Below are positions 1-363 of a stretch of DNA of 363 bases, piece after piece; positions within the stretch are counted from its first letter, which is position 1, and every line of letters begins with the position of its first letter. Origin of the DNA: Escherichia coli (GTDB lineage Bacteria > Pseudomonadota > Gammaproteobacteria > Enterobacterales > Enterobacteriaceae); the NCBI RefSeq assembly GCF_003334385.1, contig NZ_QOWN01000191.1. One strand, 5' to 3'. The position numbers were made by a program, and so were the translations under genes. Below the pieces are notes generated by a model, which worked only from the letters and a program-made list of their open reading frames with translations, was not told where the DNA came from and ran no database searches.

Positions 1-363
1 CTGCCTGATGGTGTGGAGACATACGGGGTGTGGGGACTCTCCCTGCCGTCACTGCGCCGTCGCCTGTTCCGCTGTGTCTCCATCCGGGAAAACACGGACG
101 GCACCTTTGCCATCACGGCAGTGCAGCACGTACCGGAAAAAGAAGCCATCGTGGATAACGGGGCCCGCTTTGAGCCGCAGTCAGGCACCCTGAACAGCGT
201 TATCCCACCGGCAGTGCAGCACCTGACGGTGGAGGTGAGCGCAGCTGACGGCCAGTATCTGGCGCTGGCGAAATGGGACACGCCGCGGGTGGTGAAGGGC
301 GTGCGCTTCAGTCTGCGCCTGACCAGTGGAAGCGGTGAGAACAGCCGCCTGCTGACCACCGCC
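1..363 (+). CDS. J: Internal fragment of a phage tail tip attachment / host-specificity protein (lambda gpJ-like central tail fibre protein); partial at both ends, frame +1
   Basis: Frame +1 has no stop codon across all 121 codons (the only TGA/TAA triplets fall in frames +2 and +3). Third-position GC is about 76% (92/121 by hand count), with CTG the dominant Leu codon, as in enterobacterial-type coding sequence. The translation contains RRLFRCVSIRENTDGTFAITAVQHVPEKEAIVDNGA and PPAVQHL...WDTPRVVKGV, which I recognise from memory as near-matches to the middle of lambda J (UniProt P03749). No start or stop is in the window, so gene boundaries are unknown. Not verified by a search. Confidence 0.85.
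   Translation, partial: MPDGVETYGVWGLSLPSLRRRLFRCVSIRENTDGTFAITAVQHVPEKEAIVDNGARFEPQSGTLNSVIPPAVQHLTVEVSAADGQYLALAKWDTPRVVKGVRFSLRLTSGSGENSRLLTTA
116..129. repeat. Copy 1 of a 14-bp perfect direct repeat (cggcagtgcagcac), intragenic and in frame; encodes (T)AVQH
   Basis: Exact string cggcagtgcagcac at 116-129 and again at 209-222. Flanking bases differ on both sides (a/c upstream, g/c downstream). Confidence 0.9.
205..363 (+). other. Probable N-terminal half of a fibronectin type III-like (Ig-like beta-sandwich) domain within the J-like protein
   Basis: Codons 69-121 read PPAVQHLTVEVSAADGQYLALAKWDTPRVVKGVRFSLRL... This follows the usual FN3 opening pattern: Pro-Pro start, a hydrophobic strand A (HLTVEV), a hydrophobic strand B ending in the conserved Trp (YLALAKW), then Pro (DTP). 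Lambda gpJ is known to carry FN3-like domains in its central region. The domain would continue beyond the window. Confidence 0.5.
209..222. repeat. Copy 2 of the 14-bp perfect direct repeat (cggcagtgcagcac), intragenic and in frame; encodes (P)AVQH
   Basis: Identical 14-mer, 93 bp (31 codons) downstream of copy 1, in the same codon phase (gca gtg cag cac in both). Confidence 0.9.

What the first reader, a model, noticed from the sequence alone, without database searches (positions are those of the whole stretch)
43..165. Patchy conservation relative to lambda J: a near-invariant core with more diverged flanks
From memory of lambda J, codons 15-55 (LPSLRRRLFRCVSIRENTDGTFAITAVQHVPEKEAIVDNGA) differ at only about 4 of 41 positions. 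The preceding 14 residues and the following ~65 residues appear much more diverged (roughly 55-60% identical), with what look like one-residue length differences in two loop-like stretches (around nt 166-204 and nt 322-345). This fits either a functionally constrained junction, such as a hub-to-fibre interface, or mosaic exchange of segments between tail-tip genes, which is well documented in lambdoid phages. These percentages rest on recalled sequence, not an alignment.
Basis: partly seen in the sequence, partly recalled or inferred. Interest (0 to 1): 0.35.

Follow-up and report, generated by a model that had tools for sequence, protein, structure and literature searches.

The report
Conserved hub-to-fibre joint in phage J
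This is an ordinary piece of a lambda-like phage tail-tip gene (J) in which the stretch joining the tail hub to the central fibre is kept nearly unchanged by selection, and related phages use that same conserved stretch as the crossover point for swapping fibre modules.

Summary
The window is codons 549-669 of a J (tip attachment) gene from an E. coli lambdoid prophage and aligns to lambda gpJ 549-671. Codons 15-55 differ from lambda at exactly 4 of 41 positions. The flanks are 57% and 62% identical, and each of two loops carries a one-residue indel.

The cause is purifying selection, not a recently imported lambda-like patch. In the core dN is about 3.4-fold lower than in the flanks (0.093 vs 0.320, p=0.002), while dS is deep and not significantly different (0.75 vs 1.15). 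The window carries its own haplotype ('type A') at all 59 sites that distinguish it from lambda-type genes. The core is also the best-conserved part of the window in 65 homologues of 32-51% identity.

Structurally the core is the beta-hairpin that closes hub domain HDIV plus the short helix of the linker to FNIII-1. The diverged flanks are a surface beta-sandwich insertion, the flexible linker loop and FNIII-1.

Mosaic exchange is nevertheless real in relatives. Stx2c phages join a type-A hub to a lambda-type fibre with the crossover inside nt 108-166, and phages 1717 and phi330 have other breakpoints in conserved blocks.

This is known biology, documented here in detail; interest is low.

The parts
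1..363 (+). In-frame internal fragment (121 codons, frame 1, no stop) of a lambdoid prophage J gene (tip attachment / central tail fibre protein); corresponds to residues 549-669 of a 1176-aa J and to lambda gpJ 549-671
   Evidence: PDB gpJ chains 8iyk/9e7m, E about 1e-49
1..63 (+). End of the beta-sandwich (OB-like) domain inserted in hub domain HDIV (lambda residues 483-569); diverged N-flank, last strand predicted at aa 10-14
   Evidence: Xiao et al. 2023, PMC10721106; AF2 strand at query 119-123; 57% identity to lambda over aa 1-14; identity to query 0.32 in distant homologues
43..165 (+). The reported conserved core (aa 15-55): 37/41 identical to lambda, dN 0.093 vs 0.320 in the flanks, dS 0.75 vs 1.15
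61..126 (+). Beta-hairpin that returns to and closes HDIV: strand aa 21-30 (RLFRCVSIRE; lambda beta25, residues 570-578) and strand aa 36-42 (FAITAVQ); near-invariant E30
136..156 (+). Short alpha-helix (aa 46-52, EKEAIVD) of the HDIV-to-FNIII-1 linker; motif H43-x-P45-x-K47 is invariant or nearly invariant in homologues of 32-65% identity
   Evidence: [quoted passage not shown]
108..166 (+). Stretch with no fixed difference between the window-type (A) and lambda-type (L) haplotypes; contains the longest A/L perfect-identity block of the window (nt 130-164 or 145-164); crossover interval of the Stx2c_JNE090279 chimera and left edge of the phage 1717 patch
163..195 (+). Flexible linker loop (aa 55-65, pLDDT below 50) carrying the first one-residue indel (after nt 174); replaced by lambda-type sequence in phage 1717 (L-type run nt 150-183)
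181..363 (+). First 61 residues of the first Ig-like/FNIII-1 domain (Pfam Ig_J PF24421, J residues 609-712); diverged C-flank
   Evidence: AF2 strands at aa 73-82, 85-93, 102-109; identity to query 0.18 in distant homologues
273..286 (+). Conserved KWDTP block; crossover interval of phage phi330 (A to L), coinciding with a 12-nt A/L identity block at nt 274-285
328..345 (+). FNIII-1 loop (aa 110-115, GSGENS), hypervariable, carrying the second one-residue indel (after nt 345); absent from almost all distant homologues (gap fraction 0.99)

Best explanation
The window encodes the part of a J-type tail-tip protein where the polypeptide leaves a decorative beta-sandwich insertion, returns to complete hub domain HDIV with a beta-hairpin, and then exits through a short helix and a long flexible loop into the first fibronectin-like domain (FNIII-1) of the central fibre. 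The hairpin and helix (codons 15-55, above all 37-55) are held nearly constant by purifying selection. They belong to the hub core that continues the tail tube, and they anchor the linker on which the FNIII string swings when the tip opens. The surface insertion, the flexible loop and FNIII-1 tolerate substitutions and single-residue indels. That explains the patchy identity to lambda J. As a by-product, the conserved stretch gives the longest run of DNA identity between diverged J alleles in this region, and homologous or homeologous recombination has used it as a crossover site. This produced chimeras that combine one hub with another fibre. Shown: the selection signature, the family-wide conservation, the domain assignment and the recombinant relatives. 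Inferred: the specific structural reason for the constraint (packing in the HDIV/HDI ring and the hinge role of the linker).
For: Alignment and statistics. Nei-Gojobori: core dN 0.093 vs flanks 0.320 (permutation p=0.002); dS 0.75 vs 1.15 (p=0.17). Among codons encoding the same residue, 13/37 in the core and 21/49 in the flanks carry synonymous changes (p=0.51). Against six lambda-type genes pN is 0.00-0.02 in aa 37-55, about 0.17 in aa 15-36 and 0.24-0.30 in the flanks. In 65 representatives of 32-51% identity, mean identity to the query is 0.50 for aa 15-55 and 0.62 for aa 37-55, vs 0.32 and 0.18 in the flanks; J 586-606 is the second-best 21-residue window of J 440-720. E30, H43, P45, K47 and F57 are invariant or at least 90% conserved. 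Domain assignment: beta-sandwich 483-569, beta25 570-578, linker of long loop plus short helix, then FNIII-1 (PMC10721106); Pfam Ig_J from residue 609; AF2 model with mean pLDDT 86 showing strands, helix and a low-confidence loop in the expected order. The HDIV-HDI ring bridges gpM and the lower hub, and the linker repositions on LamB binding (PMC11101478). The window is type A at 59/59 diagnostic sites with MaxChi p=0.72. Recombinant relatives. Joints favour the longer identical blocks (PMC2327257).
Against: No atomic coordinates could be inspected, so burial and contacts of the core residues are inferred from published domain descriptions and a monomer prediction, not measured. The 5' half of the core (aa 15-36) is only moderately more constrained than the flanks (pN 0.17 vs about 0.25). 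Synonymous divergence in aa 37-55 is somewhat lower than elsewhere (pS 0.29-0.44 vs 0.48-0.56; p=0.06-0.29), and two polymorphisms (nt 129, nt 132) are shared between haplotype groups. Some homogenisation by gene conversion across this block therefore cannot be excluded.
Confidence: 0.8

Rival explanations
1. Mosaic exchange explains the pattern: the core of this gene is a lambda-like DNA segment acquired by recombination and set in more diverged flanks.
For: Mosaicism is pervasive in this gene family. The PHI test is significant for all sequences, for type A alone, and with the three obvious recombinants removed (p=0.009). Clear recombinants exist with breakpoints inside the window region.
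Against: Core dS to lambda is 0.75, not significantly below the flanks. nt 43-107 is only 72-77% identical to lambda-type genes at DNA level. The window matches its own haplotype at all 59 fixed A-vs-L sites, 12 of them in nt 43-107 (20 in nt 1-107), and shows no breakpoint. The core is also conserved in homologues of 32-51% identity, which recent exchange cannot explain.
Confidence: 0.04
2. Constraint plus homogenisation: the invariant 3' half of the core (nt 108-166) owes part of its DNA identity to repeated gene conversion between J alleles across this junction, in addition to protein-level selection.
For: There is no fixed A/L difference in nt 108-166. nt 129 T and nt 132 G occur in both haplotype groups. 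pS is 0.29-0.44 there vs 0.48-0.56 in the C-flank. Two independent crossovers map in this interval.
Against: The drop in pS is not significant (p=0.06-0.29) on only 19 codons. 4-7 synonymous differences to every lambda-type gene remain. Shared polymorphisms could be recurrent third-position changes.
Confidence: 0.12
3. Chance heterogeneity: substitutions are simply unevenly scattered in a short alignment.
For: Only 121 aligned codons; the boundaries were chosen after looking at the sequence.
Against: Scan-statistic p=0.011 and longest-run p=0.026. The same segment is independently the most conserved part of the window in 65 distant homologues, and it coincides with a domain boundary.
Confidence: 0.02
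4. A nucleic-acid-level element (embedded promoter, RNA structure or overlapping gene) constrains the core.
For: 88-93% DNA identity in nt 108-166; one terminator-like hairpin on the minus strand at nt 114-97.
Against: No Rfam match (best E=0.71, 14 bits against a gathering score of 50). No promoter-like site, and the terminator-like count is within shuffle expectation (1 vs 0.3 +/- 0.6). Alternative-frame ORFs are 61 aa or shorter. Synonymous sites still vary.
Confidence: 0.02

Closest known systems
Bacteriophage lambda gpJ (tip attachment protein J; PDB 8IYK, 8IYL, 8K35, 8XCG, 8XCI, 9E7M)
   Same: Homologous over the whole window (71% aa identity, E about 1e-49). Same domain order: beta-sandwich insertion, HDIV beta25, linker helix and loop, FNIII-1. 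Same gene neighbourhood (tape measure, M, L, K, I, J) in the 99.4%-identical prophage.
   Different: A distinct allele ('type A'): 66% identity over the full protein, one-residue deletions in the linker loop and in an FNIII-1 loop, and a very different C-terminal receptor-binding end (20-30% identity), so the receptor is probably not LamB.
J genes of Stx-converting and other E. coli lambdoid prophages (e.g. PhiR12_2_star, BP-4795, JLK-2012, SW070917 prophage)
   Same: 93-99.4% nucleotide identity over the window; annotated tail tip host specificity protein J; present in 3,194 of 5,426 complete E. coli genomes, median 2 copies.
   Different: None of substance. The window is one more copy: the best match differs at 2 nt, and three IMG/VR contigs encode the identical protein segment.
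T5 baseplate hub protein pb3 and F-type pyocin central fibre (PDB 25vf)
   Same: Four-hub-domain scaffold followed by a linker and two FNIII domains (PMC10721106). The F2-pyocin fibre matches window aa 8-74, which is the core plus linker (E=3e-6).
   Different: pb3 lacks the beta-sandwich insertion in HDIV and carries HDI in the same chain. Sequence similarity outside the core is too low to detect with the window.
Homeologous recombination as a source of lambdoid mosaicism (Martinsohn et al. 2008, PMC2327257; De Paepe et al. 2014, PMC3945230)
   Same: Exchange between alleles about 25-30% diverged, with joints in the longest identical blocks: nt 130-164/145-164, and 274-285 for phi330.
   Different: Here the joints are intragenic and lie at a protein-domain boundary, so the exchanged units are hub and fibre modules of one protein rather than whole genes.

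Membership tests
Lambda gpJ-type tip attachment / central tail fibre protein | Significant sequence homology to gpJ across the segment | tested here: met
   Window aa 1-121 align to gpJ 549-671, 86/121 identical; phmmer E=6.5e-50 and 1.1e-49 to PDB gpJ chains.
Lambda gpJ-type tip attachment / central tail fibre protein | Full-length domain architecture (FNIII-A_GpJ, Phage-tail_3, Ig_J, Ig_J_second, Phage_Tail_Tip) | tested here: met
   All five Pfam families at E of 2e-30 or better in the 1176-aa J of L002, whose window region is 99.4% identical. The window itself holds only the junction and the start of Ig_J.
Lambda gpJ-type tip attachment / central tail fibre protein | Position in the tail gene cluster after tape measure, M, L, K and I | tested here: met
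   Annotated context in L002 and L003. This is inferred for the window from near-identical loci, because the window has no flanks.
Lambda gpJ-type tip attachment / central tail fibre protein | Trimeric assembly into the tail tip and receptor binding | not testable with these tools
   Needs virion structure or a genetic test.
HDIV / linker / FNIII-1 junction as in lambda gpJ and T5 pb3 | Beta-strands completing HDIV, then a short helix and a long loop, then an Ig-like domain | tested here: met
   AF2 model (mean pLDDT 86.4): strands at aa 21-30 and 36-42, helix at aa 46-52, loop with pLDDT below 50 at aa 55-65, Ig-like strands from aa 73. This agrees with PMC10721106 and Pfam Ig_J.
Intragenic mosaic (recombinant between J haplotypes A and L) | Switch of parental affinity along the sequence | tested here: not met
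   The window is type A at 59/59 diagnostic sites; MaxChi p=0.72. The feature is met in relatives: Stx2c_JNE090279 and phi330 (0 of 2,000 permutations) and phage 1717 (run of 10 L sites, 0 of 100,000 permutations).
Segment under stronger purifying selection than its neighbours | Lower dN with comparable dS, and conservation in distant homologues | tested here: met
   dN 0.093 vs 0.320 (p=0.002); dS 0.75 vs 1.15 (p=0.17); family profile 0.50 (0.62 for aa 37-55) vs 0.32 and 0.18.

The most novel reading that the evidence does not exclude
The HDIV-closing hairpin and linker helix may be more than a passively conserved structural element. They could act as a preferred 'splice point' of J genes, where hub modules (which must match gpL, gpM and gpI of the resident tail) are recombined with fibre/receptor-binding modules. 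In that case conservation at this joint, including the mildly reduced synonymous divergence in nt 108-166, would be partly maintained because it permits host-range module swapping. Breakpoints across thousands of prophage J copies would then cluster here beyond what identity-block length predicts.
Probability: 0.1. Interest if true: 0.45.

Novelty: already known. Interest (0 to 1): 0.18.

Why it matters
It adds little new biology. J genes of lambdoid prophages, their domain structure and their mosaicism are all well described. The useful points are practical. First, identity to lambda J varies along the gene because domains differ in constraint, so patchy identity alone should not be read as recombination. 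Comparing synonymous with non-synonymous change separates the two causes. Second, natural chimeras (Stx2c and Stx1 phages) show that a type-A hub works with a lambda-type fibre when joined at residues of about 588-598. That marks a tolerated fusion point for engineering J-based host-range swaps or F-pyocin-like particles.

Tried and rejected
(1) Polymorphism among 73 full-length, ungapped window matches of 93-99% identity (mainly IMG/VR loci): the share of amino-acid-variable codons is the same in the three segments (0.21, 0.20, 0.24), so at this shallow depth there is no contrast and little power. (2) Single-breakpoint MaxChi on phage 1717 gave p=0.225 because the event is a short double-crossover patch; a run-length test was used instead. 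(3) Looked in the two open-access lambda tail-tip papers for residue-level contacts of gpJ 563-605 and found only domain boundaries. (4) Tested for reduced synonymous divergence in aa 37-55 as a sign of DNA-level constraint or conversion: a trend only. (5) Rfam, promoter/terminator and alternative-ORF scans of both strands were negative or at chance level. (6) The PDB hits to designed 'SAKe' proteins (7on6, 8pju) had no stretch passing the threshold on its own and were disregarded as spurious. (7) No fold search was run, because the sequence match to solved gpJ chains already settles the fold.

Full report
WHAT THE WINDOW IS. Frame 1 of the + strand is open for all 121 codons; the other frames hold only short ORFs of 61 aa or fewer. 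BLAST places the window inside genes annotated as tail tip host specificity protein J. It matches 254 phage records, up to 98.6% identity, mostly Stx-converting and other E. coli lambdoid phages. It also matches 3,194 of 5,426 complete E. coli genomes, median two copies each, best 99.4%. In the best-matching prophage (L002) the gene is 1176 aa, follows the tape measure, M, L, K and I homologues, and the window is its residues 549-669. Phage PhiR12_2_star shows the same arrangement. Pfam finds FNIII-A_GpJ, Phage-tail_3, Ig_J (residues 609-712), Ig_J_second and Phage_Tail_Tip in that protein. The window protein matches solved lambda gpJ chains with E of about 1e-49.

CHECK OF THE OBSERVATION. 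I aligned the window to the real lambda J (NC_001416). Window aa 1-121 correspond to gpJ 549-671, with two one-residue gaps, after aa 58 (nt 174/175) and after aa 115 (nt 345/346). Codons 15-55 are 37/41 identical, codons 1-14 are 8/14 and codons 56-121 are 41/66. Over the full protein, identity to lambda J is 66% and oscillates between about 20% and 95%. The core is the last of about five conserved peaks and the only 41-residue window with at least 37 identities that starts beyond residue 425. It sits between a trough of 41-54% (residues about 500-550) and one of 51-68% (residues about 600-690).

SELECTION OR EXCHANGE. If the core were a recently exchanged lambda-like patch, synonymous sites should also be similar. 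They are not. Among codons encoding the same amino acid, 13/37 in the core and 21/49 in the flanks carry a synonymous change (p=0.51). Nei-Gojobori estimates give dS of 0.75 in the core (bootstrap interval 0.37-1.70) and 1.15 in the flanks (0.70-2.27), permutation p=0.17. By contrast dN is 0.093 vs 0.320 (p=0.002). The core is graded. In aa 15-36, pN is about 0.17 and DNA identity to lambda-type genes is 72-77%. In aa 37-55, pN is 0.00-0.02 and DNA identity is 88-93%, with pS of 0.29-0.44 against 0.48-0.56 in the C-flank, a non-significant dip (p=0.06-0.29).

FAMILY-WIDE CONSERVATION. A search of 1.84 billion representative proteins with J 440-720 found 2,842 homologues. In an alignment of 65 full-coverage representatives of 32-51% identity, mean identity to the query is 0.50 for window aa 15-55 and 0.62 for aa 37-55. 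It is 0.32 for aa 1-14 and 0.18 for aa 56-121. J 586-606 is the second most conserved 21-residue window of the 281-residue segment, after the HDIV strands that precede the insertion. In a 27-sequence alignment, K47 is invariant and E30, H43, P45 and F57 are at least 90% conserved. Gaps in the family alignment lie in the FNIII-1 part; the GSGENS loop (aa 110-115) is absent from nearly all distant homologues.

STRUCTURE. Xiao et al. [quoted passage not shown] Ge and Wang 2024 (PMC11101478) state that the pseudo-hexameric HDIV-HDI ring bridges gpM and the lower hub, and that on LamB binding the linker between the hub domains and the FNIIIs disengages and repositions. An AlphaFold2 model of J 440-720 built with the alignment (mean pLDDT 86.4) gives, in window residues: a strand at 10-14, strands at 21-30 and 36-42, a helix at 46-52, a low-confidence loop at 55-65, then Ig-like strands at 73-82, 85-93, 102-109 and from 116. 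So the N-flank is the end of the surface insertion. The core is the hairpin that closes HDIV plus the linker helix. The first indel is in the flexible linker loop, the C-flank is FNIII-1, and the second indel is in an FNIII-1 loop. I could not inspect coordinates, so the contacts of the core residues remain inferred.

MOSAICISM IN RELATIVES. An alignment of 22 J genes shows two haplotypes in this region, window-like (A) and lambda-like (L), separated by 59 fixed nucleotide differences inside the window. The window is A at all 59 and has no breakpoint (MaxChi p=0.72). Three relatives are recombinant:

- Stx2c_JNE090279 is A at every diagnostic site up to nt 107 and L at nearly every one from nt 167 (0 of 2,000 permutations reached the observed chi-square). 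Over the whole gene it is A for residues 1-588 and L for 598-1175, that is, a type-A hub with a lambda-type linker loop, FNIIIs, shaft and receptor-binding end.
- Phage 1717 carries a run of 10 L-type sites at nt 150-183, including the one-residue indel, within an A background (0 of 100,000 permutations).
- phi330 switches from A to L between nt 273 and 286.

The interval nt 108-166 has no fixed A/L difference and holds the longest perfect A/L identity block of the window (nt 130-164 or 145-164). The phi330 joint coincides with a 12-nt block at nt 274-285. This agrees with the experimental finding that joints between sequences 22% diverged mostly fall in the longer identical blocks (PMC2327257). 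PHI tests are significant for all sequences, within type A alone, and after removing the three recombinants (p=0.009). The Stx2c-type junction occurs at 99% identity or more in 27 phage records and 12 complete E. coli genome records, so it is an established form.

OTHER READINGS. No Rfam family reaches significance (best E=0.71). There is no promoter-like site, and the single terminator-like hairpin on the minus strand is within shuffle expectation. A modest contribution of gene conversion to the DNA identity of nt 108-166 cannot be excluded: variants at nt 129 and nt 132 are shared between groups, and pS is slightly lower there.

VERDICT. The pattern is best explained by domain-specific purifying selection on the HDIV-closing hairpin and linker helix, flanked by tolerant surface, loop and Ig-like segments. 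Mosaic exchange does not explain the window's own pattern, but it operates on relatives and uses the conserved joint as a crossover site. This is a detailed illustration of known properties of lambdoid J genes, not a new kind of feature.

Noticed in passing
L002 3357-6887 (J residues about 100-380 vs 390-1000), compared with lambda J: Synonymous change among identical codons is much lower in residues about 100-380 (16-30%) than in residues 390-1000 (40-55%). This suggests the N-terminal hub part has a more recent common history with lambda, with an older mosaic boundary near residue 385-395.
   Followed up: no
J residues 535-701 in the 22-gene alignment (window = 549-669): Within the stretch examined (residues 380-830), fixed differences between the A and L groups exist only between residues 535 and 701. 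Outside that range the two groupings break down, which implies further recombination on both sides of the window.
   Followed up: partly
L006 857-4321 vs L002 3357-6887: Two prophage J genes with the same window protein end differently (1155 vs 1176 aa). The same hub and junction therefore carry different C-terminal, presumably receptor-binding, ends.
   Followed up: no
L084 (phage vB_EcoS_phi330) 921-4336: J is annotated as two overlapping CDSs (921-1271 and 1208-4336), and the long ORF starts only at 1157. This is a frameshift, a truncated N-terminus or a sequencing error in J of an isolated phage.
   Followed up: no
MW057783.1 'Campylobacter phage CJLB-4', 17072-17395 (hit H94): A record labelled as a Campylobacter phage (48,361 bp) matches with the same identity and nearly the same coordinates as phage lambda. 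It is probably lambda contamination or a mislabelled record.
   Followed up: no
window nt 129 and 132: The variants T129 and G132 occur both in some type-A genes (L038, 1720a-02) and in lambda-type genes (T129 in all six, G132 in lambda and PhiR47_2). This is shared polymorphism across the haplotype boundary inside the invariant protein stretch.
   Followed up: partly
window aa 8-74 (nt 22-222): The F2-pyocin tail fibre (PDB 25vf and related entries) matches just this part of the window (E=3e-6). The HDIV-closing hairpin and linker are what remain detectable by sequence in F-type tailocins.
   Followed up: no
L002 7070-10363 (downstream of J): The best-matching prophage has no lom after J. It has instead a tail fibre N-terminal domain protein, a DUF4376 protein and a YadA C-terminal domain protein, whereas several relatives (phi330, 1717, PhiR29_1, ev099, STEC1575) have lom.
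   Followed up: no
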